A stretch of DNA of 64,000 nucleotides from an uncultured Acidobacteriota bacterium (GTDB lineage Bacteria; Acidobacteriota; Blastocatellia; Pyrinomonadales; Pyrinomonadaceae), in contig CAVVSJ010000004.1 in NCBI GenBank assembly GCA_963750925.1, forward strand, positions 893,946 to 957,945, in the 5' to 3' direction. Positions 75-51,234 of this stretch are shown in pieces; position 1 is the first letter of the stretch; every line of letters starts with the position of its first letter. Under the pieces are notes generated by a model, which made no database searches, was not told the origin of the DNA, and was given only the letters and a program-made list of their open reading frames with translations. The position numbers and the translations under genes were made by a program.

Positions 75-156
75 ACTCTCTCCTCCACCTACTAACGCAG
101 GAACTCAATCCAAAACGGCTCAAGATTTATTTGAACCTCAAAAGCTCACTCCTGAT

Positions 157-186
157 TTTTTGTGATTTTTGTGCCTCTTAGTGGCT
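157..186. repeat. solo half copy (right-arm type) of the CACAAAAG palindromic-element family
   Basis: Sequence ttttttgtgatttttgtgcctcttagtggc. It is near-identical to 52741-52766 and to the right arm of the full palindrome at 16191-16220. No complementary arm lies nearby. Confidence 0.6.
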
Positions 187-231
187 AAAATTGGAGTGTG
201 GCGATAGAATTTCGCCCTCCCCGACATTCAA

Positions 232-4030: not shown

Positions 4031-4167
4031 TTTTGTTCACCCTTCCGAAAATTTATCTGTCAGACTAGAAACACCGTTGGCGCCCGGTTTGTGCGTGGAG
4101 ATGTGACGAATCGGCCCTGGCGTGTGACAAGACGGCGTGCGGTCACGTCGAGCCATGGTCCATGCTA

Positions 4168-4229
4168 TGGAGTGCGGTGACTTGTCACCGCTTTGGCCCA
4201 AAGCGCCGCCAAGGCGGCGCACTCCAAAG
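4168..4229. repeat. GGAGTGCGG-type compound palindrome (family 2), copy 1
   Basis: tggagtgcg-gtgacttgtcac-cgctttgg cc caaagcg-ccgccaaggcgg-cgcactccaaa. The outer segments are mutually complementary. Each arm also carries its own small hairpin (gtgac-tt-gtcac; ccgcc-aa-ggcgg). Related to 49727-49810. Confidence 0.7.
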
Positions 4230-4514
4230 GCGGCTTGGCTCCATCTCTCCACGTGGATTTCCATATAGGTAAGTGCGAAGTTTCACCACTTTTTGCCGCT
4301 GCATTTCCTTGGATTTTTAAACAGTTTTACGTAGTTAAGGGAGAAGAAAAATAGTCGGGTAGAACCTCACCAAGATTGTTGACAACGGACATCAAAAAAG
4401 TCGATACTCCGCAAGCGCTCCTCACTGAGGTTGTTCTTCCAAATAGGCTCCCATTGCGCCCAGTACTCATGCCCAGGTCAACAGAAACTCCCCGTTGCAA
4501 CAGTAGGGTGAGCC

Positions 4515-5595: not shown

Positions 5596-6126
5596 TTGAT
5601 TATTGAAAACTCAAACTCTGATCAACCAACATGGTTTGCGATTTGTACCAACCCCAAACAGGAAGATCGCGCAGCTAGCAATCTCCAAGCGTGGGGCGTG
5701 GAATGTTTCAATCCAAAAGTGAAGGAATGTCGTCGCAACGAATTTACAGGCAGAGCTACGCTTATACCTAAACCTCTGTTTCCGAGATACATATTCTCGC
5801 GCTTTAGTTTAAGCAGCTCGCTCCACAAAATTAGTTTTACGCGCGGTGTTCATCGAATCGTGAGCTTCGACGACAAGCCAACTCCAATCGACGACGACGT
5901 GATCGCTTTGTTACAGGCCCGCGTGGATGATGACGGTTTTCTGAAACTCGGAGAGCCGCTTAAGCCTGGCGACAAAGTGAGAGTGAAAGATGGTCCATGG
6001 CAGACTCTCGTCGGCGTAGTTGAACGTGATATGAAGGCAGATGAGAGAATTATGATTCTGTTGGATACCATCAAGTTTCAGAGTCGCTTGACGATCGAAA
6101 GAGATCGCGTGGAAAAGATCAGTTAA
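5596..6126 (+). CDS. NusG-family specialised paralog (RfaH/LoaP/TaA-like), NGN + KOW domains
   Basis: NGN-like WFAICTNPKQEDRAASNLQAWGVECFNPKV...PLFPRYIFSRF...TRGVHRIVSF. KOW-like LKPGDKVRVKDGPWQTLVGVVERDM. The ORF track starts at GTG 5575. The in-frame TTG 5596 has AGGAGG (5581-5586) 9 nt upstream, so I prefer it. Confidence 0.8.
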   Translation: MIIENSNSDQPTWFAICTNPKQEDRAASNLQAWGVECFNPKVKECRRNEFTGRATLIPKPLFPRYIFSRFSLSSSLHKISFTRGVHRIVSFDDKPTPIDDDVIALLQARVDDDGFLKLGEPLKPGDKVRVKDGPWQTLVGVVERDMKADERIMILLDTIKFQSRLTIERDRVEKIS

Positions 6127-6156: not shown

Positions 6157-6314
6157 ATGGGCCCGGCATCCTCGACCAGGGCCCATAATGGGTGAACGTA
6201 CGTCAAATCCCCCGAGGCCTTGCGTCTCGAGGGTGTAGCACGCTCTACGCACGTTCACCATCACCAAATAGTCTGCTGAGACTTTGCCTGTTGGCGCAAA
6301 GTGCGGTAGCTCTG
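6157..6314 (+). promoter_or_regulatory. structured 5' leader of the NRPS operon with an ops-like TGCGGTAGC motif
   Basis: Four stems are visible. (1) atgggccc 6157-6164 pairs with gggcccat 6179-6186. (2) ggtgaacgt 6191-6199 pairs with acgttcacc 6251-6259. (3) That stem encloses a small cgag/ctcg stem. (4) actttgc 6281-6287 pairs with gcaaagt 6296-6302. Then gTGCGGTAGCtctg (6301-6314) matches 7 of 8 bases of the enterobacterial ops core GGCGGTAG, 26 nt before the ATG at 6340. Confidence 0.4.
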
Positions 6315-6339: not shown

Positions 6340-7491
6340 ATGCGGCCGGCACTGAGCTCTGAGTTGATGAATATAACCGCGGCGACACTCGTCGACCTGC
6401 TTCAATGGCGCGCTCAACGTCATCCGGAGCGAGTAGCCTACACGTTCCTCTCCGATGGACCAGGGGAAGAACTCACCTTTGGGGCACTCGACGGACAAGC
6501 GCGTGCGACCGGTGCATGGTTGCAGTCGCTGACTTCGCCTGGCGATCGTGTGCTCGTGCTCTATCCGCCCGGGCTTGAATACATCACCGTATTCTTCGGC
6601 TGTCTCTATGCGGGCGTAATCGCCGTACCTGCCTACCCTCCTCGACACAATCGCAACCTGCTGCGTTTGCAGTCTCTCATCGACGACGCGCAACCCGCAG
6701 TGGCGTTGACCACACCGTCGATACTTTCAAGAGTCACAGCTTCATTCGCAGGAAATCCCGGCCTGGCAAAACTTCGCTGGCTTACTGCCGGCAAGCACGC
6801 GCATAGCGATTGCTGGGCGCCACCTGCGATCACGAGCGCTGATCTTGCATTCCTCCAATACACGTCCGGCTCGACCTCCGCGCCCAAGGGCGTGATGCTG
6901 ACTCACGGCAATCTCCTGCACAACGATCGTCTGTTGCAAAAAGCTTTTGGCCAGACGGAGCAATCGATCATCGCCGGTTGGTTGCCGCTCTACCACGACA
7001 TGGGGCTGATCGGCATAGTGCTTCATTCACTTTCGGTCGGCGCGCGCTGCATCCTGATGTCGCCAATGACGTTTTTGCAGCAGCCGTTTCGCTGGTTACA
7101 GACAATCTCCGAGTACCGAGCGACGACGAGTGGTGGTCCAAACTTCTCTTACGAACTCTGCGTGCGCAAGATTACGGACGAACAGCGAGCAACTCTCGAT
7201 CTGACTCCTGGAACGTTGCCTTCAACGGCGCCGAACCAGTCAGAGCGGAGACGATTGATCGCTTCGCAAAAACTTTTGCGCCGTGCGGCTTCCGCCGCGA
7301 AGCCTTTCGCCCTTGTTACGGACTCGCGGAGGCGACGTTGCTCGTCTCCGCGCGCGAACACTCCAACCGTCAACAGACACCGCCTCTCGTCAAAGAAGTT
7401 TCTAAAAAAGCTCTGGAGCAAAATCGGATTGTCGAGGCGACGAACGAAGAGTTTGAAACACGCAAAGCCGTCGGCTGCGGCAATGCTTTGA
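6340..7491 (+). CDS. fatty acyl-AMP ligase (FAAL) domain, N-terminal part; reading frame lost near 7201-7206
   Basis: Adenylate-forming motifs YPPGLEYITVFFGCLYAGVIAVPAYPP and LQYTSGSTSAPKGVMLTHGNLL. Sense is lost after ...DEQRATLDL (about aa 288). The domain continues in the +2 frame as SWNVAFNGAEPVR... in ORF 6978-16139. Confidence 0.8.
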   Translation: MRPALSSELMNITAATLVDLLQWRAQRHPERVAYTFLSDGPGEELTFGALDGQARATGAWLQSLTSPGDRVLVLYPPGLEYITVFFGCLYAGVIAVPAYPPRHNRNLLRLQSLIDDAQPAVALTTPSILSRVTASFAGNPGLAKLRWLTAGKHAHSDCWAPPAITSADLAFLQYTSGSTSAPKGVMLTHGNLLHNDRLLQKAFGQTEQSIIAGWLPLYHDMGLIGIVLHSLSVGARCILMSPMTFLQQPFRWLQTISEYRATTSGGPNFSYELCVRKITDEQRATLDLTPGTLPSTAPNQSERRRLIASQKLLRRAASAAKPFALVTDSRRRRCSSPRANTPTVNRHRLSSKKFLKKLWSKIGLSRRRTKSLKHAKPSAAAML

Positions 7492-10400
7492 CCGAAGTGG
7501 CAATCGTTAACCCTGATTCGCTCAACCGGTGCGCGCCAGGTGAAGTCGGTGAAATCTGGGTTTCTGGTCCAAACGTCGCCGCCGGTTACTGGAACAAACC
7601 GGTCGAGAGCGATGAAACGTTTCGAGCGGTCCTGAAAAATGAAGATGGACATTTTCTGCGCACCGGCGATCTCGGCTTTGTCCGGGATGGCGAACTATTT
7701 CTCACCGGACGGCTCAAGGATGTGATACTCAGTCGCGGCCGGAATCACTATCCGCAGGACATCGAGTTGACTGTCGAGCAGTGTCATCCGTCGCTGCGGT
7801 CCGGTTGCGGCGCAGCATTTTCCGTGCTCGTCCACGATGAAGAACGTGTGGTGGTGGTCCAGGAGATAGAGCCGCGCCACTCGCCTGAGTTGCAGCCTCT
7901 CATCGCGTCGATTCGCGAGGCGATCAGCGAGGAACACGAAATCGCGGCACATGCGATCGTGCTCGTAAAAGCCGGGACGGTGCCCAAAACCTCGAGCGGC
8001 AAGATTCAACGAAGAGCATGCCGGAAGTTGTTTATCGAGAGTGGACTCGAGATTGTTGGGCAGTGGCGGGAGAGTCTCTCCGAGGAAAGCGGCGACCAGT
8101 CGCCGCACTCCAAAGAGGTTGCGGGTACGGTTGAAGACTGGTTGCGAGCGGAGTTTGCCGCGCTCCTGAAGATGAACGTCGCCGAGGTTGACGTTCAGCA
8201 GCCGATCCTGCGATATGGTTTGGATTCACTGTCCGCGACGGAGTTGACGCACCGGATCGAGAGCGTATTTGGGGTGGGCGTTCCGCTCACCGCTCTGCTC
8301 GAAAATCCCAGCATCGCACAACTCACAAACACGATCGAGAAGTGTGTGCAGAAACCTGCGGCGCTCGCGCCTGCCGAGGAGAGCGAGGAGCACCCGCTTT
8401 CGTTTGGGCAGAAGTCTTTGTGGTTTTTGCACCGGCTACAGCCGGAGAGTGCTGCGTACAATCTCTCGACTGCCTTTCGCATGTACGGCGAGTTGGATGT
8501 TGCGGCCCTGCAGCGCGCGTTTGAGGGCCTGGTCCAACGTCACGCCGCCTTGAGAACGACGTTCTCGCAAAACGGCGGCGAGCCTGTGCAGAAAGTAAAC
8601 AAACACCTGCCCGTTTGTTTCGAGCAGGTAGATGCTTCGTCATGGACGGAAGAAGTTGCGGGCGAATGGCTGGCGCAAGACGCGCACCGGCCGTTTGATT
8701 TGAGCACGGGTCCTTTGCTGCGTGTGTCGTTGTTGCGCCGTTCGGATCGCGAGCATGTCCTGCTCTTTGTAGTACATCACATCGTCTCCGACTTCTGGTC
8801 GCTTGCGGTTTTGATGAAGGAACTCGGCGTGCTCTACGAAGCGGAGTTGCGACAGACCGGCGCGAAGTTGTCACCTTTGTCGTTGCAATACATCGATTAC
8901 GTGCGGCAAGAGACGGCGATGTTGCAGGGGCCACGCGGCGAGCAACTCTGGAATTACTGGCGCGCCCAGCTCAACGGTGAGTTGCCTTCGCTGAATCTTC
9001 CCACCGATCGGCCGCGTCCGGCGCAGCAGAGTTTTCGCGGATCGTCACGACCGTTCAGGCTGAATTCCGAACTTGCGCTAAAACTCAGAGACCTCAGCCG
9101 TTCGGAAGGCGCAACGCTCTACATGGTCCTGCTCGCGGCGTTTCAAGCGCTGCTCTATCGATACACGGAACAGAAAGAATTTGTCGTAGGGTCACCTGCC
9201 GCGGCGCGTAATTCGGCTGCGATGTCCTCCGTGAGCGGCTACTTCGTGAACCCCCTCGCTTTGCGCGCGGATCTGTCCGGCAATCCGTCTTTTGTCGAAC
9301 TACTGGCTCGCGTGCGTCGCACGGTCCTCGATGCTTTTTCGCATCAGGAGTTTCCTTTCGCATTGCTGGTCGCGCGACTGCAACCCACACGCGATCCGAG
9401 TCGCAGCCCGTTGTTTCAGCACATGTTTGTGATGCAGCAATCCGGCGGCACGGGTGATCTGGCGGCGTTTGTGCTCGGCGACAGCAAGACGCAATTGGAA
9501 TTCGGCAAACTGCGTCTCGAGCCGGTGAATTTGGACGGGGGTGTATCGCTCTTCGATCTGAGATTGTCCGTCGCGGAAGCGGCGGAGACCCTCGTCGGCT
9601 CGATGGAATACAACTCCGACCTGTTCGAGGCTGCGACGATCGATCGCATGTTGGGCCACTTTGAGGAATTGCTCGAGAGTCTCGTTACGGACCCGCATCA
9701 GTCACTTCACCGGCATTCGCTGTTAACAACGTCTGAGAGAGAGTTGCTGACGGCGTGTAACGACACCGCGATTGATTATGGCCCATACCGCACACTCCAC
9801 GAACTCATCGACGAACAGGCGGAGCGCACACCAAATAACGTCGCGGTCAGGTTCGAAGATGAAGAACTGACTTATGCGGAGCTCGAGCGGCGCGCGGATT
9901 TACTTGCGCGTGAGCTGCGGGAATCGGGTGTCGGGCTCGACGTGACAGTCGGCGTCTGCATGGAGCGTTCGCCCGAATTGGTGGTGGCTTTGCTAGGCAT
10001 CCTCAAAGCCGGTGGCGCTTATGTGCCGCTCGATCCGGGTTATCCGCGCGAGCGTCTGCGGTTCATGCTCGAAGATTCGAGACCACCGGTGTTGTTGACA
10101 CAGAGTCGTCTGCGAGGACTGTTGCCGGAGTCAATAGCGGCGGAGGTTATCTGCGTCGACGAGAGCCTTCCTCGCCAAGGCGCAAAGGCGCAAAGGAAGC
10201 AAGGACGTTCGCAAAGTGGGAAGAATCTTGCTTACGTAATTTACACATCCGGCTCGACTGGTCAGCCAAAAGGCGCGATGAACACCCATGAGGGCATCGT
10301 CAACCGGCTGTTGTGGATGCAGGATCAATATCGATTGACGGCGGCTGACTGCGTGCTGCAAAAAACGCCTTTCAGTTTCGACGTCTCGGTGTGGGAATTC

Positions 10401-16139: not shown

Positions 16140-16140
16140 C

Positions 16141-16220
16141 GCCACAAAAGGCACATAAGTCACAAAAGACAAAAACCATTTTTCTTAATATTTTTTGTGA
16201 CTTATGTGCCTTTTTGTGGC
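16141..16220. repeat. intercistronic palindrome A (CACAAAAG variant)
   Basis: The left arm gccacaaaaggcacataagtcacaaaa pairs with the right arm ttttgtgacttatgtgcctttttgtggc. That is 27 bp with one bulged A. The element starts 2 nt after the stop at 16139 and ends 15 nt before the ATG at 16236. Confidence 0.85.
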
Positions 16221-16235
16221 TTCCTCAGTTGAATC

Positions 16236-17276
16236 ATGATTAGTCAGGAATTTAGATCGTCGCGACGCAGGGCTGTGCGTCTGAATCCGGCGGCGTTGAC
16301 CAGGAATTACTATCTCGATGCCGAGCGCCGGTTGCCGCTCGTCGTCGAGCCGGCGGTGAACGATCTCGAGCTGGCGACATGGGCCATGGACCATCGCGAG
16401 TTTATTGCCGATGAGCTGGCGCGTCACGGCGCAATCCTGCTGCGTGGATTCGACGTTCGGACGGTGGAGAGTTTTGAGAGATTTGTCGCTGCGACCTCGA
16501 ATGGCGCCTTACCTTACAACGAACGTTCTTCACCGCGCAGCCAGGTAAACGGGAACATATACACGTCGACGGATTACCCCGCGTCTGAACGCATTTTTCT
16601 GCACAACGAGCAATCGTACAACTTGCAGTTTCCGTTGAAGATCTACTTTTTCTGCCTCGTGAAAGCTGACGAAGGCGGCGAGACACCAATCGCCGACACG
16701 CGCAGAGTTTTTGCACGGATTGATCCGGAAATCCGGCGTCGTTTCTCAAAGCATGGTTACACCTACGCGCGAAACTTCGGCAACGGCTTTGGATTGTCAT
16801 GGCAGGACACTTTCCAAACACGAAGCAAAGCTGAAGTGGAGCAGTACTGCGCCCAACATCAGATTTCATGCAAGTGGCTGGGTGGTGATCGATTGCGCAC
16901 CGCGCAAGTGAGACCCGCGATCGCGCAGCATCCGCGAACCGGGGAGTTGGCCTGGTTTAATCACGCGACTTTTTTTCACGTCTCGACTCTCGAACCTGTA
17001 ATTCGCGAACGCGTGCTCGCCGAGTTTGGTGAGGAGGATTTGCCGAACAACACCTATTACGGCGACGGCGCGCGTATTGAACCTGAAGCGATGGACCATC
17101 TGCGGCAGGCCTATCTGCAGGAGAAGATCGTGTTTCCGTGGCAGCAGTATGATGTGTTGATGCTGGACAACATGCTGACCTCACACGCGCGCGAAGCGTT
17201 TAGCGGACGCCGCCAGGTCGTTGCCGGTATGGCCGATCCGTGTCTCTGGAATGACGTCTTACCCACCGAGTTGTAG
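16236..17276 (+). CDS. TauD/TfdA-family (SyrP-like) Fe(II)/2-oxoglutarate dioxygenase
   Basis: 346 aa. HxE facial-triad start in IFLHNEQSY, GGETPIADTR, and distal His/Arg in LDNMLTSHAREAFSGRR. Its size and position inside an NRPS operon resemble carrier-protein-dependent amino-acid beta-hydroxylases. Confidence 0.8.
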   Translation: MISQEFRSSRRRAVRLNPAALTRNYYLDAERRLPLVVEPAVNDLELATWAMDHREFIADELARHGAILLRGFDVRTVESFERFVAATSNGALPYNERSSPRSQVNGNIYTSTDYPASERIFLHNEQSYNLQFPLKIYFFCLVKADEGGETPIADTRRVFARIDPEIRRRFSKHGYTYARNFGNGFGLSWQDTFQTRSKAEVEQYCAQHQISCKWLGGDRLRTAQVRPAIAQHPRTGELAWFNHATFFHVSTLEPVIRERVLAEFGEEDLPNNTYYGDGARIEPEAMDHLRQAYLQEKIVFPWQQYDVLMLDNMLTSHAREAFSGRRQVVAGMADPCLWNDVLPTEL

Positions 17277-17281
17277 AAGCC

Positions 17282-28400: not shown

Positions 28401-29255
28401 AGCGTTGTCCTCCCGCTGCATCATTCCATTCGCGTCGCGGAGGAATGGTCGGTGGTCGATAACCTTTCGAACGGGCGCGCGGGAGTCTCGTTCACCTCGG
28501 GTTGGATTCCGAACGACTTCGCGTTTTTCCCGGAACGTTTTCCCAACAAACGCGAGGAGATGCTGCGCGGGATCGAAGAAGTGCAACGTCTCTGGCGTGG
28601 CGAAACGATCTCCGCGATCGACGGAGCAGGGAAGAGCCGCGATCTGAGCATCCTGCCGCGGCCGATCCAGGCTGAGTTGCCGATCTGGTTGACGTGCAGC
28701 GGCGATCCGCAAATGTTCGTCAAGGCGGGTGAACTCGGACTGCACGTTCTCACCGCCCTCCTGTCGCAGTCAGTCGAAGAAGTAGAGAGCAAGATCAAAC
28801 TCTACCGCGATGCGCGCCGGGCGAACGGACACGATCCTGACACGGGCGTCGTGACGCTGATGATGCACACGTTTGTCGGCGAGAACGAGCAGAAAGTTCT
28901 CGACATCACGCGTGGTCCACTCAGCGAGTATCTGAAAGCTCACGTCGGCCTGATCGAGACGATGACGCAGAGTCTCGACATCAAGGTTGACATCAATAAG
29001 GAAGAGTATCTCGACTACCTCATCGCTTTTGCCCTCGAGCGCTACTACAAGATCGCGTCACTGATCGGCACGCCCGAGAAATGCCTGCCGCTCGTCCAGC
29101 GACTCTCGGATATCGGCGTTGACGAACTCGCGTGTTTTATCGATTTCGGCGTTAACGTAGACGCCGTGCTCGAGGGATTGCGCCACCTACACAAACTGAA
29201 ACAACTCTGCGAAACACCACGGATTGCACCGCTCACACGAACTCAATCCGCATAA
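22452..29255 (+). CDS. Hybrid PKS module: KS-AT(malonyl-type)-KR-DH-carrier-LLM (luciferase-like monooxygenase) domain
   Basis: ATGA start/stop overlap with NRPS 2. KS motifs TACSTSLVAVH (~22991), EAHGTGT, KANIGHLDVAAG. AT motifs GHSIGE (~24336) and HAFH (~24629). KR motifs TGGMGGMG (~25920) and DYCAANNF (~26399). DH motifs HRIGGRAVLPG (~26658) and LHPSLLD. Carrier GGDSV (~27804). An acidic linker EEDDEFDDEEEE follows. LLM domain IDFSLFYFAAD...WTPERHF...SFTSGW runs from ~28178 to the end. Confidence 0.9.
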   Translation: MSKNDLNAASQGIAIVGLAGRFPQAKTLTEFWRNLTEGTQTVSFFTDDELRAEGIASAVLEDSRYVKAKGMLDDVEWFDASFFGITPKEAEMMDPQQRLFLECAWTALEDAGYDSEQHNGSIGLFAGASINSYLLLNLLSNPDLVDRVGILQSSIPNRTDHLTTRAAYKLNLKGPAITVQTACSTSLVAVHLACQSLASYGCDLALAGGVTVSVPKKSGYYFQEGGVLSSDGYCRPFDHKANGTVVGNGAGVVVLKRLADALAEGDEIHAVIKGSAINNDGSLKVGYTAPSLEGQVEVIAMAQAVAGVDPETISYVEAHGTGTTLGDPIELAALSEIFRASTNRKNFCAIGSLKANIGHLDVAAGVAGLIKTTLALRHGVVPPVLNFERPNPQIDLESSPFYVNTKSIEWKRNGTPRRAGVSSFGIGGTNAHVVLEEAPAREQSEASRPSQLLLLSAATASALETATTNLSAHLRENPQLDLADVAHTLAVGRRAFRHRRILAAHDLEDAARALDGLDPRRVVTALQEPKNRPVMFMFPGQGAQFVNMGRELYESEPVFRAEVDHCAEQLRRHLDVDLRAILYPDDAVSTESVERLKQTAITQPALFVTEYALAKLLMHWGVSPAGMIGHSIGEFVAACLSGVLSLSDALSLVAARGRLMQSVENGEMLVLPLPEAQVQPLLGDELSLASVNSPSLCVVAGPASAIAKLDEKLKTQDVLSRRLHTSHAFHSKMMDPILDSFRDEVSRVKLNAPRIPFVSNLTGTWIRAEDATDPEYWVKHLRQTVRFGEGVTRLFEQPDSILLEVGPGKTLMTIARWHAAKTAGQTVLTSMSHPDEPRSDLVALQNSVGKLWLAGVNISWRDFYAHEQRRRVSLPTYPFERRRFWIDPATQTVGLSATKNGLRKNPNLAEWFYTPSWKSSVPPARPATAKDQSPWVLFVDECGLGRGVARQLENAGREVITVSAGVEFTSRGDRDFVVAPNSKEDFETLLQTLAARGIRPASFVHLWNVTSAFDSLNDSARAVDCERKGFYSLLALAQALGNDSESKPAELTIVTNEMQRVTGDESLSPDKATVLGAVRVVPQEYKQITCRSIDVRLDHDEDKLAELLASELLAGSSDKTIAYRNHQRWVQNFEPYSLPKPAQIDAGLRQKGVYLITGGMGGMGLVFAEHLARTAGARLALVGRSTFPSRERWRRWLGTHDEHDEVSQKIRRLQEFEKYGARVEVFSADVSDLEQMKDVHARVVKQFGPVNGVIHAAGVAGGGMIHLKTPEKAASILAPKVEGTRVLGRIFAGAGLDFLFLCSSRSSILGGFGQIDYCAANNFLDAFANYYTAKTGTFTIAADWDGWQEVGMLVNTAAQYGLAKESKQTIDHPLLAERVSQTPDRETFVKQFSVADSWILEEHRIGGRAVLPGVTYLEMAHAAFEQHAGVDGPVELRDVFFITPMSINDDEKRDVRLVLERNGDAFRFRASSKPSGNGDSDAAWQDHAMGEVGRAAVREPRRHNLEEIIKRCGTREIFGGDEERDPDLGPRWQNITKVYLGEREMVVLFELDEAFAPDLERLKLHPSLLDRAAGTGMLYMELDGVYLPMSYKRLRVEQPLPRRIFAHIRETENNYSKKETITFDVLIMDEHGNELVEIEEFSEKRINDLTEQVRAMSDKTARADVNEPAATLVKSFYEESIGEGIAPAEGVEVLMRILNGAKVPQVIVSTKDLAASIADANSFIENKVSDEIDKLQVARPLHPRPDVQTPYAAPRNELEEMLAGIMQEALGVDRVGVDDNFFELGGDSVLSIQIIARVNRAGWQITPQQIFQHQTIAELAAVAVKTGEPKAETVSTAPAPPAEKTGFGVAGLEGRRLNKLSRLLEEDDEFDDEEEEAIVEEPAAKVIAVSGNGTGVKEMTIKEPKKAKQIDFSLFYFAADNSQSGGDKYRLYLEGAKFADKHGFSAVWTPERHFHESGGLYPNPSVLSAALAAVTEQIKLRAGSVVLPLHHSIRVAEEWSVVDNLSNGRAGVSFTSGWIPNDFAFFPERFPNKREEMLRGIEEVQRLWRGETISAIDGAGKSRDLSILPRPIQAELPIWLTCSGDPQMFVKAGELGLHVLTALLSQSVEEVESKIKLYRDARRANGHDPDTGVVTLMMHTFVGENEQKVLDITRGPLSEYLKAHVGLIETMTQSLDIKVDINKEEYLDYLIAFALERYYKIASLIGTPEKCLPLVQRLSDIGVDELACFIDFGVNVDAVLEGLRHLHKLKQLCETPRIAPLTRTQSA

Positions 29256-29269
29256 GCACGAATTAATTT

Positions 29270-29336
29270 GGGTCTTTGGTCTTGGGTTTTGGGTCTTCAA
29301 GATTACCCAGGACCCTAGACCAAAGACCAAAGACCA
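29270..29336. repeat. intercistronic palindrome C (GACCAAAG variant)
   Basis: ggtctttggtctt (29271-29283) pairs perfectly with aagaccaaagacc (29323-29335). The inner extension 29285-29296 / 29310-29321 pairs at most positions, including G-U. The loop is ~13 nt. Confidence 0.75.
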
Positions 29337-41300: not shown

Positions 41301-42865
41301 AAGACCGTATCGGTTTGCACGCCAACTTCTTCGATCTCGGTGGTCACTCGTTGCTGGCGACGCGAGTTATTTCACGCGTGCGTGAAGCGTTCAAACTTGA
41401 AGTGCCGTTGCGACGATTGTTTGAAATGCCGACCGTGTTTGAGCTTTCCGCGTACATCGACGCGCAGCTTGGCTCGGGCACGAACGTGGCCCAGGCTCCG
41501 ATTCGCCGGCAGCAGCAACAGGACAACGCGCGGCCTCTCTCGTTCGCGCAGCAGCGCCTATGGTTCTGGGAGCAGTTGGAGCCGGACACTCCGACTTACA
41601 ATCTCATTTCAGCATTCCGGCTCGTTGGAGATCTGGATCTCGCGGTGATGGAGCAGAGTCTGAATGAGATCGTGCGGCGTCACGAGATTTTACGCACTTC
41701 GTTTACTTCGGTTGACGGCGATCCGGTGCAGGTAGTCGCACCGCGCAAAACCCTGCGACTCACTCTCGTGGATCTGAGTTGGTTGCCGGAAGTGCAACGC
41801 GAAGCGGAAGCGCGCCGGCTCACTGGAGAAGAAGCGTTGCGGCCGTTTGCGTTGAACAAGGCGCCCCTGTTTCGACTCACGATTCTGCGTTTGAGTCCGC
41901 ACGAACACGTTGCGGTCGTGGCCATGCATCACATCATTTCCGACGGCTGGTCAGTGGGCATTTTCGTCGACGAAGTGACCTCGTTGTATGAATCTTATAG
42001 TCTGAAGCAGCCGTCGCAATTGCGCGATCTGCCGGTGCAGTATGCCGACTTTGCGCAGTGGCAAAAAGAGATGTTGCAACCGGGCAGCGAAATTCTCGAG
42101 TCGCAGCTCAGTTACTGGAAAGAGCAATTGCGCGATGCGCCGAACCTGGAGCTGCCGACCGATCGACCTCGACCGGAAGTCTACAATCCGCGCGGCGCGA
42201 TCATGCCGGTGAGTTTCACGACGGAGTTGTCGGATGAACTCAGAGCGTTGAGCCGGCGAGAGCGTGTCACACTCTTCATGACGTTGCTCGCGGCTTTCAA
42301 CGTCATGCTTCATGCACAGAGCGGGCAGGAGGATATTGTCGTCGGAACCGACATTGCCAATCGCACGCGAGTTGAGACTGAAGGACTGATCGGATTCTTC
42401 GTCAACATGCTGGTGCTGCGTACTGATCTCGCCGGCAATCCGACGTTCAGCGAGTTGTTGCAACGCGTGCGCGAAGTCACGCTCGGCGCTTACGCTCATC
42501 AGGACGTGCCGTTTGCAACACTTGTCGGAGAGTTGCACGTGAAGCGCGACTTGAGTCGCAACCCGCTGTTCCAGGTTGTTTGTGTTCTGCAGAATGCTTC
42601 GGCGAAGAAACTCGAGTTGCCGGGACTGACGCTGACTCCGTTCGAGTTCGAGGTCACGACCGCGCCACTCGACATGGTGCTGTCTCTCAATGAACTCGAG
42701 GAAAACCTGGTGGGGTCGATAACGTACAACACCGAACTCTTCGAAGAACACACGATTCGCCGCATGTTCAATCACTATCAGCAGGTGCTTGAACGCGTCG
42801 TAGCCAACCCTCACCAGCCACTTTCCAGCTTGAAAGCATTCGCACGCGCGGTGGCGGCGGATTAA
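29366..42865 (+). CDS. NRPS 3: C-A(Glu)-[FkbM MT]-T-C-A(Val-like)-T-C-A(unassigned)-T-C-T-C
   Basis: The ORF track starts at 29276 inside palindrome C. ATG 29366 begins MKMKNVEDIYPLSPMQEGILFH. C His motifs: YYHGLVDGWS (~29789), HHIISDGWS (~33896), HHAVLDGWS (~37109), HHLITDGWS (~40262), HHIISDGWS (~41926). Carrier serines: GGHSL ~33311, GGDSI ~36491, GGHSL ~39677, GGHSL ~41338. Hand-extracted codes: DAKDLGVVDK, DAYWLGATFK, DPWYIGSIAK. Only ~35 aa separate the fifth C from T5, so there is no A domain there. The protein ends in a C domain with no TE. Confidence 0.9.
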   Translation: MKMKNVEDIYPLSPMQEGILFHTRHDPAFAMYFEIITGTMRGDVDLAAFARAWQSVVDRHAVLRTAFVWEGLDEPVQVVRKRAKLAVTNYDWRGLSSDEQANALAELFAAERARGFDLSKAPLMRVALIQTADDSYRFVWTYYHGLVDGWSGSLVFNDVFSYYEASIRGVEISLPPAPSFRSYIDWVRKQDLDKAREYWQGALRGFKAATPIELVRARETSISDETRSYRELEFSLDAETTAKLVRLSRQQQLTLNTICQGAWAMLLNRYSGEQDVVFGVAVSGRPPMLENVETMIGMLINTLPARIQVTPEAMLIPWLKDIQSAQWEMREYEYSPLVQVQGWSEVSRTSPLFDSIVSFENHPIDYSLLKRSDRAEVRDVVHYHTATGYPINIIIEPGNKLTVKLMYDFGRVDDIAVERILGHLRQLLTAIAENEDRHLSDFAILTPIEQQQLLFEWNGNTAEYRRDVCLHELFEEQVQRTPEAPAVVFRDQQLSFAELNSRANQLARYLRQLGVGPEVRTALCMERSVEMVVGMLAILKAGGVYVPLEMAQPQARLKFMLEDADARVVLTQQALVDLLPKHDVPIVCVDECVLDENADNLPVNATADNLAYVIYTSGSTGTPKGVMVGHRSAVNLVSGLRQAIYDRHAAPLRVSVNAQIVFDASIKQLVQLLGGHTLVVIPEDVRASGEAMLAHIAEQRLDVLDCTPSQLQLLLASEAWERDKPQALLIGGEAISADLWDRLSAQSGTECYNVYGPTECTVDAAIGHVETAGETPNIGHPITNARIYLLDAQQRPVPIGVRGEICVAGECLARGYLNAPGLTAEKFVPEPFSGVAGARMYRTGDLGRYLADGRIEFVGRVDHQVKVRGVRIELGEIEAALRQHAAVRDAVVQVREDITNDKRLIAYVVPEETQGLPLVPKVAGEEREDLLSGRQLTKLPNGMLIAGHGSLQASGVYREIFEDNIYFKHGVRLDEGACVFDVGANIGLFTLFVKQQVRASRVYSFEPLPPNFQALQTNAKLYGLDVKLFECGLSNRRDTATFTFYPHAAAMSGKGTRVEEDKVAAMANVGSWLKTFEHDPHSAPGEYDLDNFVEHYLISESYTCQLRTLSEIIREHGIERIDLLKLDVERSEFDVLTGIEDDDWKKIRQFVIEVHSDELLEQIAALLRTRGYTFAIEKSSIVETSGQDVVRGYMLYAFDPAQRNASSNGHGLNGANPRPLALSDAALSPDSLRNFLLERLPVQMIPTGFVVLKELPLMASGKVDRRALPAPEDQSLLSGDEHVAPRTPVEEIVAGICASVLRLESVSVTANFFDLGGHSLLAAQVISRVRETFHVELSLRSLFLKPTVEGLAENIEKSLTAGDQVAGGRIEPIAHEGELPLSFSQQRIWFLDQMAGSTPYYNITSRVRLQGDLNLEALQKAFSEIVRRHEILRTTFSKVRGRPAQIINPAQPLTLGIEDVPGETFEDRVENARSIARADAEQPFDLNVGPLLRIRLLRLDNSEHLALLTMHHIISDGWSTSVLISELSALYSAFLKGEPSPLPELPLQYVDYAVWQRNWLQGETLETQLNYWREKLQGAPALLELPTDKPRPATQTFNGASENWRIGPQTTARLRQLSRDEGTTLYMTLLAAFKTLLYRYSGQTDLVIGTDIANRTRSETENLIGFFANIVLMRSDMSRNPTFAELLGHVRETALGAYAHQDLPFEKLVEELQPERSLSHAPFFNVIFVLQNTPRGTLDMPGLKLTSEEFDSNFTRFDLEFHLWERDGELSGFLIYNTDLFEAETISRLLGHFTNLLDGIITDPDRRVASLPLLAAEERQTLLTAWNDTATDYPRNDVIHRQFELQAAQRPHATALIFGDREMTYDELNRRANQLAHHLVSLGIGPETPVAVCLERSFEVVIALLGILKAGGYYVPLDREYPIDRLAFMINDSAVPVVLTQTSLLEVLPAHWSQIVTMDDDWEMIANESDENLVTRGTAENLAYVMYTSGSTGEPKGVSITHRGVLRLVKETNFANFGTDEVFLQLAPVTFDASTYEVWGSLLNGGRLVIMPPEAPELDELGAALQRYGVTTLWLTAGLFHLMVDQRPDDLRGLRQLLAGGDVLSPTHVRKSLSIVQGQVVNAYGPTENTTFTTTNPMTRETQFDGVVSIGRPIANTQVYLLNRELEPVPVGAMGELYTGGDGLARGYHNRPEFTADRFIPHPHGPAGARLYRTGDLARYLPDGRIEFVGRLDQQVKVRGFRIELEEIEIALASHPAVRQCVVLARADGGREKQLVAYVVLQAERELTATEMRSYLGRHLPEYMVPPQLVVLEAFPLTSNGKVNRKALPAPGDVRDSSQNGFVAPQSAAEKVLAEVWQEVLGVERVSVNDNFFDLGGDSIRSIQVQAQVEERGFEVSVRQILQVQTLGDLAREAKDATGIVRRHSRTLPFSLVRSEDLQKLPEEIEDAYPLSFLQRGMLYHTGVSGELALYHVIFSCVIRGALDPVALQTAMQQLAAEHPVLRTSFDLHSYGEPLQLVHKEVVVPFEIRDQRQLTKAEQKQTFAAWKEDDKARGFDWSTAPIMRLNIFLHDDDEFRIAVSFHHAVLDGWSLSSLLSELFVRYLELREGGAQGERIAAPATFRDFIALEQDSLQSEETRQYWSEKLASLPATALPPRDAVASEEAGRKVMQTSLGSELVDGLKSFARETGVSLKSVLLATHCKILGLLTGQAEVTTGLVSNGRPEEAGGDRALGLFLNTIPFSLPLRDRSWRELVQAVAESEKELAEFRRYPFAELQKSHGGQPPFEATFNYTHFHILEKVHEAPNFEVVDVEVFSQINFPLSVGFDLNNNSELILILEHDLSRLSVRQVEEIKNYYSRALHAIVTDPAGGADNAWALNDEERQRLLVQWNDTRAEYPAGVCLHELIEAQAARTPGAIALTSRDAAITYRKLNERANQLAHHLKSLGVGPEVLVGVMLDRSVEMVVALLGVLKAGGAYVPLDPDYPRERVRFMLEDAGVAVLLSEWGLADRLPDNGPTILFVDSDEIRQQSRANLVSGVTADNLVYVIYTSGTTGQPKGSMLDHREVVNCVLWMQETYALTPEDRMLCKTTLNFDPSVWEIFWPLMVGGQVVLSRPGEQHDPAALVQTITNQEVTTAYFVPSMLSLVLAEKELEQATSLQQVICGGESLPHDLVRLFYERLPQATLHHSYGPTETAIASSEIVCERDSSYRITPIGRPLANTQLYVLDQKMQLVPAGVIGELYIGGAGVGRGYLNRPDLTAQKFVPDSFGVAAGGRLYRTGDMVRYLPDGNVEFHGRRDEQVKVRGVRIELAEIETALRALSEVQAALVALRQDDAGENNLVAYVVPKDGVELVTADLRQKLSQRLPVAMVPAIFVTLPEIPLLPNGKIDRTALPAPGAEPAHKYVAPHDATEELIAGIWAEVLDLERVSVHDDFFTIGGHSLTATQIMARLFDVFQVDLGLRALFETPTVTGLARRVNEAMREGAFGQSPTIVPRTRPQSLPLSFAQQRLWFLEQLESAGAAYHIPVIFRIHGRLDVPALERVLNEIMERHESLRTSFRAVDGEPMQVIEPHRKVSLPVINLSDLPEAQREAETALLSSEQAQLKFDLTTAPLLHARLVRLSDEEHVLQLSMHHLITDGWSVAVLARETGALYEAFTQDKDSPLPALRAQYADFALWQREWLQGDLLAAQIDYWRRHLASAPKALDLPTDHPRPSTQRFRGAQLRFKLPSSLTAQVQELSRREGATIFMTLLAAYSVVLSRFADQDDVVVGTPIANRRQSELEDLIGFFANTLALRVKVHPALTFHELLRNVREVTLGAYANQDVPFEKLVEELQPARDLNRNPFFQVTFGVQNFPNSQLNLPGLTISMQEFDTAATRFDLECFLRETDGELNGIYVYNTDLFEEQTVKDIIKHFEQLLEIVTANPKVPISELPNPFSALERKRVTEEQPSTHPELPQIVAETPTAELLANIWAEVLGKDRIGLHANFFDLGGHSLLATRVISRVREAFKLEVPLRRLFEMPTVFELSAYIDAQLGSGTNVAQAPIRRQQQQDNARPLSFAQQRLWFWEQLEPDTPTYNLISAFRLVGDLDLAVMEQSLNEIVRRHEILRTSFTSVDGDPVQVVAPRKTLRLTLVDLSWLPEVQREAEARRLTGEEALRPFALNKAPLFRLTILRLSPHEHVAVVAMHHIISDGWSVGIFVDEVTSLYESYSLKQPSQLRDLPVQYADFAQWQKEMLQPGSEILESQLSYWKEQLRDAPNLELPTDRPRPEVYNPRGAIMPVSFTTELSDELRALSRRERVTLFMTLLAAFNVMLHAQSGQEDIVVGTDIANRTRVETEGLIGFFVNMLVLRTDLAGNPTFSELLQRVREVTLGAYAHQDVPFATLVGELHVKRDLSRNPLFQVVCVLQNASAKKLELPGLTLTPFEFEVTTAPLDMVLSLNELEENLVGSITYNTELFEEHTIRRMFNHYQQVLERVVANPHQPLSSLKAFARAVAAD
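30719..32047 (+). repeat. A-domain core duplicate, copy 2 (pairs with 19672-21009)
   Basis: See copy 1. The flanks on both sides are unrelated or strongly diverged: the upstream C domains differ in type, and the downstream MT inserts are only roughly half identical at the protein level by eye. Confidence 0.9.
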
Positions 42866-42875
42866 AGCCGCCACC
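42850..42875 (+). other. 9-bp perfect hairpin spanning the NRPS 3 stop codon
   Basis: ggtggcggc (42850-42858), loop ggattaaa containing TAA 42863-42865, then gccgccacc (42867-42875). No U-tract follows. Confidence 0.6.
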
Positions 42876-43044
42876 AAAAGCACAAAAGTCACAAAACATT
42901 CCTCTTTACAAACGACCCTCACCTGTTCCCGCCTGACAGACGCGCGCTCTCCGCGCGTTAACGCATAAGTCCGCCCAAAACAATTCCAGGAACACAACTG
43001 AAATTTGTAAGGCACATTTGTGCTTTATTGTGCCTCTTTGTAGC
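42870..43044. repeat. split copy of the CACAAAAG palindromic element (arms ~106 nt apart)
   Basis: The left-arm type is gccaccaaaagcacaaaagtcacaaaac (42870-42897). The right-arm type is tttgtaaggcacatttgtgctttattgtgcctctttgtagc (43004-43044). The spacer contains a 7-bp hairpin, acgcgcg-ctctc-cgcgcgt, at about 42938-42958. Confidence 0.55.
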
Positions 43045-43146
43045 TACCACTATCGGGTTAGTTAAAAAGACTTCGATCTCGGGATGCTGCTATTTGTCCG
43101 TTAAAAGACAATCGCGCTTCGCAACACTAACTTACCGGAGGCATTT

Positions 43147-49701: not shown

Positions 49702-49726
49702 GCGAAGTAAAAAGATTATTCTCCGA

Positions 49727-49810
49727 TTTGGAGTGCGGCGGCTTGACGCCGCTTTGTTCTTGAGTGTGCGTGTTCGAGACTAAAGCGGCGTCAAGCCGCC
49801 GCACTCCAAA
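49727..49810. repeat. GGAGTGCGG-type palindrome (family 2), copy 2
   Basis: tttggagtgcggcggcttgacgccgcttt (49727-49755) is the exact reverse complement of aaagcggcgtcaagccgccgcactccaaa (49782-49810), a 29/29 match. Each arm also contains gcggc...gccgc. Confidence 0.85.
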
Positions 49811-49811
49811 A

Positions 49812-49851
49812 TGGAAAATAAAACGGGCGCCTCCGGAAGAGACGCCCGTTG
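49812..49851 (-). terminator. Rho-independent terminator of the phosphatase gene (minus strand)
   Basis: On the minus strand: aacgggcg-tctcttccggagg-cgcccgtt followed by ttattttcc. It starts 15 nt after the stop at 49866-49868. Confidence 0.7.

Positions 49852-51158: not shown

Positions 51159-51234
<76 letters not shown>

What the first reader, a model, noticed from the sequence alone, without database searches (positions are those of the whole stretch)
16141..29336. Every intergenic junction of the operon is filled by a long near-perfect palindrome
Layout of the junctions:
- Stop 16139, palindrome 16141-16220 (27 bp plus one bulge), ATG 16236.
- Stop 18307, palindrome 18322-18404 (29-nt arms, one mismatch), GTG 18430.
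- Stop 29255, palindrome 29271-29335 (13 perfect bp plus an imperfect extension), ATG 29366.
- The stop at 42865 sits in the loop of a 9-bp hairpin, followed by a split copy.
- The two remaining junctions have no spacer (a 5-nt gap and an ATGA overlap).

None of the stems is followed by a U-tract, so they are not canonical intrinsic terminators.

Possible roles:
- RNase III/E processing or 3'-end stabilisers that set cistron stoichiometry.
- Pause or termination sites overridden by the NusG paralog.
- Control of re-initiation at the next start codon.
Basis: partly seen in the sequence, partly recalled or inferred. Interest (0 to 1): 0.7.

Follow-up and report, generated by a model that had tools for sequence, protein, structure and literature searches.

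The report
Dispersed palindromic repeats filling operon junctions
The long hairpins between the genes of this antibiotic-type gene cluster are real, but they are copies of repeat families scattered through soil Acidobacteria genomes, usually right after stop codons, not a control system built for this operon.

Summary
Three long palindromes fill the three real spacers of an NRPS/PKS operon (16140-16221, 18317-18409, 29271-29335). They fold far better than shuffles (z -12, -9, -6). A degenerate split copy follows the last gene.

The operon-specific reading does not hold.
- The first palindrome's arm pattern matched at least 120 metagenome contigs. The shared consensus is TAGCCACAAAAAGGCACAAAAGTCACAAAAG, then a variable loop, then its complement.
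- These copies sit at gene 3' ends: 38 convergent against 5 divergent.
- Their terminal TAG is often the stop codon itself.
- The same contigs carry one long palindrome per 3.2 kb, from many families with arms built of tandem short units. Relatives of the second palindrome are among them.
- In five orthologous clusters each junction is empty, holds a solo arm, or holds a palindrome of a different family.

The third palindrome has no second copy and is assigned by analogy only.

An RfaH-like NusG paralog and a conserved ops-like leader motif (GCGGTAGCTCTG, 6303-6314) may explain why the operon tolerates them. Effects on RNA are untested.

The parts
16140..16221 (.). P1: a full copy of the dispersed CACAAAAG-unit palindrome family, starting 1 nt after the stop at 16137-16139 and ending 15 nt before the ATG at 16236
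   Evidence: z -12.2. The arm profile built from metagenome copies hits both arms (E 4e-6 and 2e-4). Its arm pattern matched at least 120 metagenome contigs.
18317..18409 (.). P2: a palindrome whose arms are tandem CGCAAAG(N) units, between the stop at 18307 and the GTG at 18430
   Evidence: z -9.2. Relatives were found in unrelated contigs: L137 4828-4919 (with a similar loop), L199 5958-6024, L152 3035-3119, and solo arms in L171 and L092.
29271..29335 (.). P3: a palindrome whose arms are tandem GGTCTT(N) units, T-rich arm first; no second copy was found
   Evidence: z -6.0. No relative was found in about 2 Mb of related DNA or, as a palindrome, in viral contigs. It is assigned to the same class by architecture only.
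42850..42875 (+). A 9-bp hairpin with the stop codon of the last megasynthase in its loop; its 3' arm is the outer end of the P4 left arm
   Evidence: z -4.95.
42866..42897 (.). P4 left arm: a P1-family arm directly after the stop codon
   Evidence: 89% over 28 nt to the P1 left arm; profile E 0.025.
43008..43047 (.). P4 right arm: a degenerate P1-family arm about 110 nt downstream of the left arm (weak)
   Evidence: The profile hit at 43028-43046 reaches only E 9.7. By eye, the reverse complement TAGCTACAAAGAGGCACAATAAAGCACAAATG resembles the family consensus.
155..188 (.). A solo P1-family arm outside the operon, in a divergent intergenic region
   Evidence: 87.5% over 32 nt; E 1e-5; sequence.
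5632..6126 (+). A specialised NusG paralog (RfaH/UpxY/LoaP-like) encoded just upstream of the operon
   Evidence: TIGR01955 RfaH E 4e-30 (below the curated cut-off), UpxY 3e-19, LoaP 3e-12, NusG 6e-11.
6303..6314 (+). The ops-like motif GCGGTAGCTCTG in the leader, ending 25 nt before the ATG at 6340
   Evidence: the only match in the window to GCGGTAGCNNTG (0.09 expected); the exact 12-mer occurs 4 times in 2.18 Mb (about 0.26 expected). Three of the four are in leaders of NRPS operons (window, L001 position 6, L082 position 9917).
49716..49821 (.). A 48-nt-arm palindrome of another dispersed family (GGAGTGCGGCGG...CGCCGCTTTG) between convergent genes outside the operon
   Evidence: z -14.2. 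Related copies are at 4165-4229 and 8086-8114, and in L098 and L121.
10168..10200 (+). A P2-like solo arm inside the megasynthase coding sequence, in frame
   Evidence: It lies in a variable A-domain loop that is 6 aa longer than in the L001 ortholog.

Best explanation
The junction palindromes are copies of dispersed, REP/REPIN/MITE-like palindromic repeat families. These families are abundant in Pyrinomonadaceae-type soil Acidobacteria.

Shown here:
- Each element is a pair of conserved inverted arms, each built of 3-4 tandem 7-10-nt units, around a short and poorly conserved loop.
- The families sit in intergenic DNA, overwhelmingly at gene 3' ends and flush against stop codons.
- The best-sampled family, to which P1 and P4 belong, ends in TAG on both sides, and that TAG often serves as the stop codon.
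- In this operon the spacers largely consist of the palindromes. Orthologous clusters have 27-58-nt junctions or gene overlaps where the elements are absent.
- The elements turn over: they are gained, replaced by another family, or decay to solo arms.

Inferred, not shown:
- They spread by transposition or a related copying process. Candidates are a TA/TAG target, or an IS200/IS605-type tyrosine transposase as for REPs and the acidobacterial TIR families.
- Once transcribed they fold into 22-29-bp hairpins. Like REPs or Correia elements, these may pause or partly terminate RNA polymerase, block 3' exonucleases or be cut by RNase III.
- The operon tolerates them because its RNA polymerase is modified by the RfaH-like NusG paralog, recruited at the ops-like site in the leader.
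For: 1. Dispersal. The outer 14 nt of each arm (TAGCCACAAAAAGG) were not in the pattern yet are 68-95% conserved, while the loops vary from 8 to 38 nt. An arm profile finds 275 arms in 118 loci, up to 7 in 8.4 kb.
2. Context. Among 115 unique copies, 38 are convergent, 39 co-directional and 5 divergent. Stop codons of ORFs reading into the element peak at the element's own terminal TAG (41 of 129), and TAG makes up 45% of those stops.
3. Load. The same 664 kb holds 210 palindromes scoring at least 14, one per 3.2 kb. They come from many tandem-unit families, including P2 relatives. Outside the ascertained sites, 24% of co-directional, 37% of convergent and 13% of divergent spacers carry one.
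4. No positional conservation. Results by junction:
   - J1: P1 in the window, a decayed P1-type element in L203, a CTCTGCG-family palindrome in L081, nothing in L001/L205, two MITE copies in L207.
   - J2: P2 in the window, a solo P1 arm in L001/L205 and in L081 (in L081 its TAG is the stop codon), nothing in L203 and L207.
   - The ATGA-overlap junction holds a 155-nt palindrome-bearing spacer in L207.
   - J3: P3 in the window, nothing (27-33 nt) in L203/L204, CTCTGTG-family palindromes in L205 and L207.

5. Outside the operon, the window carries a solo P1 arm (155-188), other palindrome families (4165-4229, 49716-49821, 50879-51034) and arms inside coding sequence (8086-8114, 10168-10200).
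6. Stems show no excess of G-U over A-C mismatches in the sense orientation (21 against 30, p = 0.26).
7. Precedent: GTAG REPs often supply the TAG stop codon to flanking ORFs, also occur inside genes, and Acidobacteria have their own group of TIR-associated tyrosine transposases (PMC3733652). REPINs are hairpins formed by inverted REP doublets together with an intervening spacer (PMC3116915).
Against: - P3 has no second copy in anything I could search. Its membership rests on architecture alone.
- The source genome could not be retrieved, so density in its own intergenic DNA is known only for this 64-kb window.
- By the strict score, 3 of 3 operon spacers carry a palindrome against 0 of 8 co-directional spacers elsewhere in the window. 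Against a 24% background in related contigs, 3 of 3 has p of about 0.014. Some enrichment in the operon is therefore not excluded.
- No transposase, unambiguous target-site duplication or exact empty site was found. The terminal TA could be either part of the inverted repeat or a duplication.
- Highly conserved arms around hypervariable loops are not what recent copies of a classical MITE look like.
Confidence: 0.75

Rival explanations
1. The palindromes are domesticated terminator or attenuator modules working with processive antitermination. They act as pause or termination signals inside the operon. Only RNA polymerase loaded with the RfaH-like paralog at the ops-like site reads through, so expression of the whole 36-kb operon depends on the paralog.
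For: - An RfaH/LoaP-like protein is encoded directly upstream.
- The ops-like GCGGTAGCTCTG motif is conserved in three NRPS leaders.
- The P1 family has an A-tract, GC-clamped stem and U-tract layout (GGCAC...GTGCC followed by TTTTTGTGG), and sits at 3' ends and between convergent genes.
- Low-GC copies are followed by T-runs.
- LoaP-controlled biosynthetic operons are described as terminator-laden (PMC12691694).
Against: - Orthologous clusters work with empty junctions.
- The families differ in polarity: P3 and the CTCTGCG/CTCTGTG family have the pyrimidine-rich arm first and no U-tract, so they cannot be intrinsic terminators in either direction.
- Stems of 22-29 bp with 15-25-nt loops are far from measured terminators of 7-9 bp. 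In one system long stems made terminators resistant to antitermination (PMC10325885).
- The simple terminator scan does not single out the junction palindromes. Its only hits there are short 6-7-bp sub-stems with weak tails, and the total number of hits is no higher than in shuffles.
Confidence: 0.2
2. The palindromes are operon-specific RNA processing or stability elements. The hairpins are RNase III/E sites or 3'-exonuclease barriers, selected to set the ratio of the cistrons or to control re-initiation at the next start codon.
For: - The hairpins are very stable and lie 1-15 nt after stops and 15-30 nt before starts.
- P3 pairs better in the sense RNA, with two G-U pairs.
- REP and Correia elements are known to have such effects (PMC2649163; malEFG REPs and REPs within 15 nt of stop codons, from my own knowledge, not checked here).
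Against: - The same families occur next to unrelated genes.
- Junction content is not conserved among orthologs.
- The L203 copy at J1 has decayed to -21 kcal/mol.
- There is no sense-strand G-U bias across 78 co-directional elements.
Confidence: 0.1
3. The palindromes arose locally without mobility. Each would come from expansion of a short tandem unit after the stop codon, followed by fold-back copying of one arm onto the other. Similar sequences elsewhere would then reflect convergence on low-complexity units.
For: - The arms are tandem 7-10-nt units.
- Loops are unrelated between copies.
- Some copies extend the palindrome into unique flanking sequence.
- P3 is unique.
Against: - Near-identical 30-nt arms, including positions not imposed by the search pattern, recur in more than 100 contigs. 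Convergence cannot produce this.
- P2 shares even its loop sequence with L137.
Confidence: 0.07

Closest known systems
REP elements and REPINs (RAYT-associated), including GTAG-tagged REPs
   Same: They are high-copy extragenic palindromes biased to gene 3' ends and intercistronic spacers. REPINs are REP doublets in inverted orientation that, with the intervening spacer, form a hairpin (PMC3116915), which matches the arm-loop-arm layout here. [quoted passage not shown] Both features are seen here.
   Different: The arms here are not themselves small palindromes but arrays of tandem 7-10-nt units. TAG occurs at both ends, and the preceding base is G in only 9-13% of copies, so there is no GTAG tag. 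No RAYT gene could be looked for.
Bacterial MITEs such as Correia/NEMIS elements of Neisseria
   Same: Both have terminal inverted repeats and a possible TA target. Both insert between co-transcribed genes, show presence/absence differences between relatives, and fold into long RNA hairpins. In Neisseria those hairpins are bound or cut by RNase III and alter expression of neighbouring genes (PMC2649163).
   Different: Correia elements have a conserved 100-150-bp body. Here there is almost no body, only arms and a variable 8-38-nt loop. No cognate insertion sequence is known, and RNase III cleavage is untested.
TIR repeat families linked to TIRYT tyrosine transposases in Acidobacteria (Koribacter versatilis and others)
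   Same: They occur in the same phylum and are moderately abundant families of inverted repeats unrelated to classical REPs (PMC3733652).
   Different: I could not compare sequences, since the TIR sequences are in a figure. No link between the families here and a TIRYT gene was tested.
Terminator-laden biosynthetic operons read through by NusG paralogs (LoaP at dfn/mln; RfaH with ops)
   Same: A NusG paralog is encoded beside a long NRPS/PKS operon, a conserved leader motif resembles the ops core GCGGTAG, and hairpins lie inside the operon (PMC12691694).
   Different: The hairpins here are generic genome-wide repeats rather than dedicated terminators. Most lack a canonical U-tract. Orthologous operons often lack them.

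Membership tests
REP / REPIN | High-copy, dispersed, extragenic palindromic repeat | tested here: met
   At least 120 contigs match the P1 arm pattern. There are 275 arms in 118 loci. Context is 38 convergent and 39 co-directional against 5 divergent. P2 relatives occur in 5 unrelated contigs. This is not shown for P3.
REP / REPIN | Conserved GTAG (or CGTC) tetranucleotide at one end | tested here: not met
   The consensus is (T/A)TAG at both ends. G precedes TAG in only 9-13% of copies.
REP / REPIN | Two inverted REP units flanking a spacer and forming a hairpin | tested here: inconclusive
   The layout of conserved inverted arms around a variable loop is present. However, each arm is a tandem-unit array, not a small palindrome.
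REP / REPIN | Cognate RAYT (IS200/IS605-type tyrosine transposase) flanked by the same repeats | not tested
   The source genome was not retrievable. ORFs of the metagenome loci were not screened for transposases.
MITE | Terminal inverted repeats shared by all copies | tested here: met
   The 30-nt arms are conserved across copies.
MITE | Target-site duplication flanking the element | tested here: inconclusive
   TA is present at both ends in about 68% of copies. Because TA is itself palindromic, it cannot be told apart from the end of the inverted repeat.
MITE | Filled and empty sites among related genomes | tested here: met
   Junctions J1, J2, J3 and the ATGA overlap are each filled in some orthologous clusters and empty in others. 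The sequences are too diverged to define exact empty sites.
MITE | Autonomous insertion sequence with the same inverted repeats | not tested
   Arm pairs 300-3500 bp apart are neighbouring independent elements. No transposase search was made.
Intrinsic (Rho-independent) terminator | Short GC-rich stem (about 5-15 bp) with a small loop | tested here: not met
   The stems are 22-29 bp and A/T-rich, with loops of 15-25 nt. The consensus scan hits only short 6-7-bp sub-stems inside P2 and P3, not the long stems, and its total is no higher than in shuffles.
Intrinsic (Rho-independent) terminator | U-tract immediately 3' of the stem | tested here: inconclusive
   P1 has TTTTTGTGG right after the inner stem GGCAC...GTGCC. 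P2 has AAATTTTCTT. P3 and the CTCTGCG/CTCTGTG family have none.
Operon under a specialised NusG paralog (RfaH/LoaP type) | NusG paralog encoded at the operon | tested here: met
   The protein at 5632-6126 hits RfaH at E 4e-30, UpxY at 3e-19 and LoaP at 3e-12, all below the curated cut-offs.
Operon under a specialised NusG paralog (RfaH/LoaP type) | Recruitment element in the 5' leader (ops, or a LoaP hairpin) | tested here: inconclusive
   GCGGTAGCTCTG at 6303-6314 shares the GCGGTAG core of ops (consensus GGCGGTAGnnTG, from my own knowledge). It recurs in the leaders of L001 and L082. Binding is untested.
Operon under a specialised NusG paralog (RfaH/LoaP type) | Internal termination or pause sites whose read-through needs the paralog | not testable with these tools
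   This needs transcript end mapping or in vitro transcription.

The most novel reading that the evidence does not exclude
The palindromes with tandem-unit arms would form an undescribed superfamily of stop-codon-seeking mobile hairpins. They would insert at the TA of a stop codon and bring their own TAG. At least the CACAAAAG family would act as a portable bidirectional terminator. Contigs with G+C from 0.24 to 0.72 carry it, which may mean several phyla. Long biosynthetic operons would then survive colonisation only because they carry RfaH-like antitermination, which would tie repeat load to NusG-paralog control.
Probability: 0.15. Interest if true: 0.6.

Novelty: new member of a known kind. 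Interest (0 to 1): 0.3.

Why it matters
For this operon the result is deflationary: the striking junction hairpins are not evidence of a bespoke regulatory design. Anyone mining acidobacterial biosynthetic clusters should expect them as generic repeats, which may also be a nuisance for heterologous expression.

The families themselves are little described. None of the six arm-derived strings I searched (from the P1 and CTCTGTG families) appears in the open literature in a relevant context; the only match is a 16-mer in an unrelated Bacteroides fragilis capsule-locus paper. They could be useful as markers, as a case of repeats that supply stop codons, and as a natural test of how much secondary structure an RfaH-type operon can tolerate.

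Tried and rejected
- Retrieving the source genome failed. The exact proteins of four window genes are not in the contig index, although an identical TauD exists on a 1.34-Mb contig.
- Rfam at gathering thresholds found only a tRNA.
- The consensus promoter/terminator scan was uninformative. Its loop limit of 8 nt excludes these hairpins, and its counts do not exceed shuffles.
- The window-wide direct-repeat search was swamped by NRPS domain paralogy.
- The search for P3 relatives found nothing. There was none in about 2 Mb of related loci. A viral-contig scan with (GACCAAA)n returned only plain tandem repeats.
- A literature search for six arm-derived strings found nothing relevant.
- A search for arm pairs enclosing a transposase found only neighbouring independent elements.
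- CRP-type sites were considered and rejected: the TCACA...TGTGA half-sites are in the wrong orientation and spacing.
- CRISPR, dif and attC were also considered and rejected, since no spacer array, dif-like core or integron context is present.

Full report
**What the window is**

The 64-kb window carries a hybrid NRPS/PKS operon on the + strand.
- The first megasynthase (fatty-acyl-AMP ligase plus NRPS modules) runs from 6340 (or 6978) to 16139.
- Two TauD-family dioxygenases lie at 16236-17276 and 17282-18307.
- An NRPS lies at 18430-22455.
- A PKS module with a luciferase-like monooxygenase lies at 22452-29255.
- A 4.5-k-residue NRPS lies at 29366-42865.

Just upstream, 5632-6126 encodes a specialised NusG paralog. 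Its best match is RfaH (E 4e-30), followed by UpxY and LoaP, all below the curated cut-offs. The nearest relatives of the TauD protein are MAGs labelled Pyrinomonadaceae (Acidobacteriota), at 70-74% identity. The source genome itself is not among the 185,579 representative genomes. An identical protein exists on an unnamed 1.34-Mb contig that the tools could not deliver.

**Checking the observation**

- P1 has a 22-bp perfect core that extends to about 29 bp (-42.4 kcal/mol, z -12.2).
- P2 has 29-nt arms with one mismatch (-58.6 kcal/mol, z -9.2).
- P3 has 25-nt arms at 88% complementarity (-39.7 kcal/mol, z -6.0).
- In each case none of 200 shuffles folds as well.

A dedicated palindrome finder reports only five elements scoring at least 13 in the whole window. 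All are intergenic and three lie in the operon. The 5-nt gap, the ATGA overlap and the 9-bp hairpin with the final stop codon in its loop are also as described.

The "split copy" after the last gene has two parts. One is a left arm 89% identical to the P1 left arm (42869-42896). The other is a much weaker right arm about 110 nt further on.

The one inaccurate statement is that no stem is followed by a U-tract. In P1 the inner stem GGCAC...GTGCC is followed directly by TTTTTGTGG. P2 is followed by AAATTTTCTT. P3 has none.

**Anatomy**

All of these arms are arrays of three or four tandem 7-10-nt units.
- P1 and P4 use CACAAAAG(N).
- P2 uses CGCAAAG(N).
- P3 uses GGTCTT(N).

P1 and P2 read A-rich arm then T-rich arm on either strand. 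P3 reads T-rich arm first. The loops are 15-25 nt and A/T-rich.

**Are they special to the operon? The window**

They are not confined to the operon.
- A solo P1-type arm lies at 155-188, in a divergent intergenic region.
- Other palindrome families lie at 4165-4229 and at 49716-49821 (48-nt arms, z -14).
- A MITE-like inverted repeat lies at 50879-51034, with a partial second copy at 45124-45279.
- Repeat arms even sit in frame inside the megasynthase gene, at 8086-8114 (encoding SGDQSPHSK in the ligase-carrier linker) and at 10168-10200. The second lies in a variable adenylation-domain loop that is 6 residues longer than in the ortholog.

**Are they special to the operon? Public metagenomes**

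Most are soil and rhizosphere contigs of 52-58% G+C.

The 14 nt outside the pattern are conserved too. The family consensus is TAGCCACAAAAAGGCACAAAAGTCACAAAAG, then a loop, then its complement. The loops are unrelated in sequence and length. A profile of the arms finds 275 arms in 118 of these loci. Of these, 121 are paired elements and about 36 are solo arms, with up to seven arms in 8.4 kb.

**Context of the family**

- Among 115 unique copies, 38 lie between convergent genes and 39 between co-directional genes. Only 5 lie between divergent genes.
- ORFs reading into an element end within 60 nt of the core on 129 of 194 sides.
- The position of the stop codon peaks sharply on the element's own terminal TAG (41 of 129).
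- TAG makes up 45% of those stops.
- In many convergent pairs the element is the entire spacer.

GTAG REPs are already known to supply TAG stops to flanking ORFs and to occur inside genes (PMC3733652).

**Repeat load of such genomes**

The 664 kb fetched for the P1 family holds 210 palindromes scoring at least 14, one per 3.2 kb. Ninety-one of them lack the P1 core and come mostly from other families of the same tandem-unit style, plus some ordinary hairpins.
- CTCTGCG/CTCTGTG units (four copies in 9 kb of L132)
- GGAGACGCG units
- CAGGATTAA units
- CACGAAG/CACAAAG units
- P2 relatives: L137 4828-4919 shares even the P2 loop, L199 and L152 are full copies, and L171 and L092 hold solo arms

Leaving out the ascertained site, 24% of co-directional, 37% of convergent and 13% of divergent spacers of at least 40 nt carry such a palindrome. 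P3 is the exception. I found no second copy in about 2 Mb of related DNA, and a viral-contig scan returned only plain tandem repeats.

Five further clusters share the gene order: L001/L205, L081, L203/L204 and L207. Their TauD or PKS proteins are 74-81% identical to the window's. The junctions compare as follows.

| Junction | Window | Orthologous clusters |
|---|---|---|
| J1 (megasynthase to TauD) | P1 | L203: decayed P1-type element (-21 kcal/mol). L081: CTCTGCG-family palindrome. L001/L205: nothing (43 nt). L207: two copies of a MITE. |
| J2 (TauD to NRPS) | P2 | L001/L205 and L081: solo P1-type left arm starting right after the stop or at it (in L081 the stop codon is the element's TAG). 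L203 (56 nt) and L207 (27 nt): nothing. |
| NRPS to PKS | ATGA overlap | L001, L203, L205: same overlap. L207: 155-nt spacer holding a CTCTGTG-family palindrome. |
| J3 (PKS to NRPS) | P3 | L203/L204: nothing (27-33 nt). L205 and L207: CTCTGTG-family palindromes. |

The hairpins are therefore not conserved in position. They come and go, are replaced by other families and decay to single arms. Where present, they account for most of the spacer length. More distant Pyrinomonadaceae NRPS clusters carry 125-200-nt MITE-like elements in their junctions instead (L010, L017, L031, L053, L056).

**RNA-level selection**

If the stems were kept as sense-strand RNA helices, mismatches should favour G-U over A-C in the transcribed orientation. 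Across 78 elements in co-directional spacers the counts are 21 G-U against 30 A-C (p = 0.26). This gives no support for directional RNA-level selection. The test is weak, however, and does not exclude function on both strands.

**Best explanation**

P1/P4 and P2 are members of dispersed REP/REPIN/MITE-like families. I place P3 with them by analogy only. These families populate the intergenic DNA of such genomes and preferentially end up flush against stop codons. The operon's junctions are permissive landing sites, and the palindromes are passengers. How they spread is not shown.

The terminal TA/TAG suggests one of two routes. One is a TA target, which would regenerate a TAG stop when a stop codon is hit. 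The other is a REP-like mechanism using a tyrosine transposase. Acidobacteria have their own group of TIR-associated tyrosine transposases (PMC3733652).

The layout of inverted arms around a spacer resembles REPINs (PMC3116915). Two things differ: the arms are not small palindromes, and there is no GTAG tag.

**What the elements may still do**

Once transcribed they will form 22-29-bp hairpins 1-15 nt after stop codons. By analogy with REPs and Correia elements, they could slow or partly stop RNA polymerase, protect upstream RNA from 3' exonucleases, or be bound or cut by RNase III (PMC2649163). The malEFG and stop-proximal REP effects are cited from my own knowledge and were not checked here. 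Any such effect would be a by-product.

The P1 family does have the A-tract, clamped-stem and U-tract layout of a bidirectional terminator, and low-GC copies are followed by T-runs. The CTCTGCG/CTCTGTG family and P3 have the opposite polarity and cannot be terminators of that kind.

**The NusG paralog**

- The leader contains GCGGTAGCTCTG at 6303-6314, ending 25 nt before the first start codon. It shares the GCGGTAG core of the RfaH recruitment element ops (consensus from my own knowledge).
- It is the only match to GCGGTAGCNNTG in the window (0.09 expected).
- The exact 12-mer occurs four times in 2.18 Mb, against about 0.26 expected. Three of the four are in leaders of NRPS operons: the window, the orthologous L001, and L082.

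An RfaH-type, pause- and termination-resistant polymerase would explain why a 36-kb operon tolerates strong hairpins. LoaP-controlled clusters have been called terminator-laden (PMC12691694). This is inference.

One point runs against a designed partnership. In one antitermination system, long stems (15 bp) made a terminator resistant to read-through (PMC10325885).

**Remaining doubt**

By the strict score, all three operon spacers carry a palindrome, and none of eight co-directional spacers elsewhere in the window does. Against the 24% background, 3 of 3 has p of about 0.014.

Much of this is circular, because in a tightly packed operon a spacer of 100 nt exists only when an element has been inserted. 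With looser criteria, 8 of 13 non-operon spacers in the window also hold a repeat or a long hairpin (my reading). Only the full source genome can settle whether the operon is enriched.

**Verdict**

The families are new members of a known kind. Interest is modest. The more novel reading is a stop-codon-seeking, terminator-like mobile hairpin superfamily whose load is buffered by NusG-paralog antitermination. The evidence does not exclude it, and I rate its probability at about 0.15.

Noticed in passing
window 6340-7491 and 6978-16139: The first megasynthase is split over two overlapping reading frames inside its fatty-acyl-AMP ligase domain. The AMP-binding profile positions 1-274 of 384 fall in the first ORF and the rest in the second. 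This is either a sequencing error or a real frameshift, which would make it a pseudogene.
   Followed up: partly
window 8086-8114: AAAGCGGCGACCAGTCGCCGCACTCCAAAG lies in frame inside the megasynthase gene, encoding SGDQSPHSK in the ligase-carrier linker. It is a unit of the GGAGTGCGGCG...CGCCGCTTTG repeat family seen at 49716-49821 and 4165-4229.
   Followed up: partly
window 10168-10200: A P2-like solo arm (CTCGCCAAGGCGCAAAGGCGCAAAGG) lies in frame in a variable adenylation-domain loop. The loop is 6 residues longer than in the L001 ortholog. A near-identical solo arm occurs in L171 at 4432-4456.
   Followed up: partly
window 6303-6314; L001 6-17; L082 9917-9928: The ops-like 12-mer GCGGTAGCTCTG occurs on the sense strand in the leaders of three NRPS operons. 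It occurs 4 times in 2.18 Mb against about 0.26 expected. It may be the recruitment site for the RfaH-like paralog.
   Followed up: partly
L087, L096, L101, L102, L113, L135, L144, L146, L156, L159, L173, L180, L185, L187, L198 (G+C 0.30-0.40); L111, L123, L154, L167 (G+C about 0.70): The same CACAAAAGTCACAAAAG palindrome core occurs in low-GC contigs and in high-GC contigs. From the ORFs of L180, the low-GC contigs look Bacteroidota-like (unverified). In the low-GC copies the stem is followed by T-runs, like a canonical bidirectional terminator. A family shared across such different genomes is unexpected.
   Followed up: no
window 50879-51034 and 45124-45279; L017 1-162: A MITE-like element with ends of the form GGTCCC..GGGACC..ATGTTTATAG has a full copy beside a tRNA gene (51159-51231) and a partial second copy in the window. 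A related copy occurs in another Pyrinomonadaceae contig.
   Followed up: partly
L010 4608-4733 and 7748-7872; L017 2227-2355; L085 5139-5266; L126 9166-9293: A roughly 125-nt element with 40-nt terminal inverted repeats (CTTGGATCGGGTCAGTACAGGGAGCGGTAGCGACCTGGTC) is shared almost unchanged by contigs from different MAGs and metagenomes. In L010 and L017 it lies in NRPS junctions.
   Followed up: no
L132 930-8061: Five palindromes of the CTCTGCG/CTCTGTG-unit type (four of them 37-39-nt-arm copies), plus a P1-type element, lie within 9 kb. That is about one per gene end and shows how dense these repeats can be.
   Followed up: no
window 16236, L001 9971, L081 3496: The first TauD gene has no recognisable Shine-Dalgarno sequence in any of the three clusters. 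The NRPS after the second TauD has a conserved GGAGACAAA 5-8 nt before its start codon.
   Followed up: no
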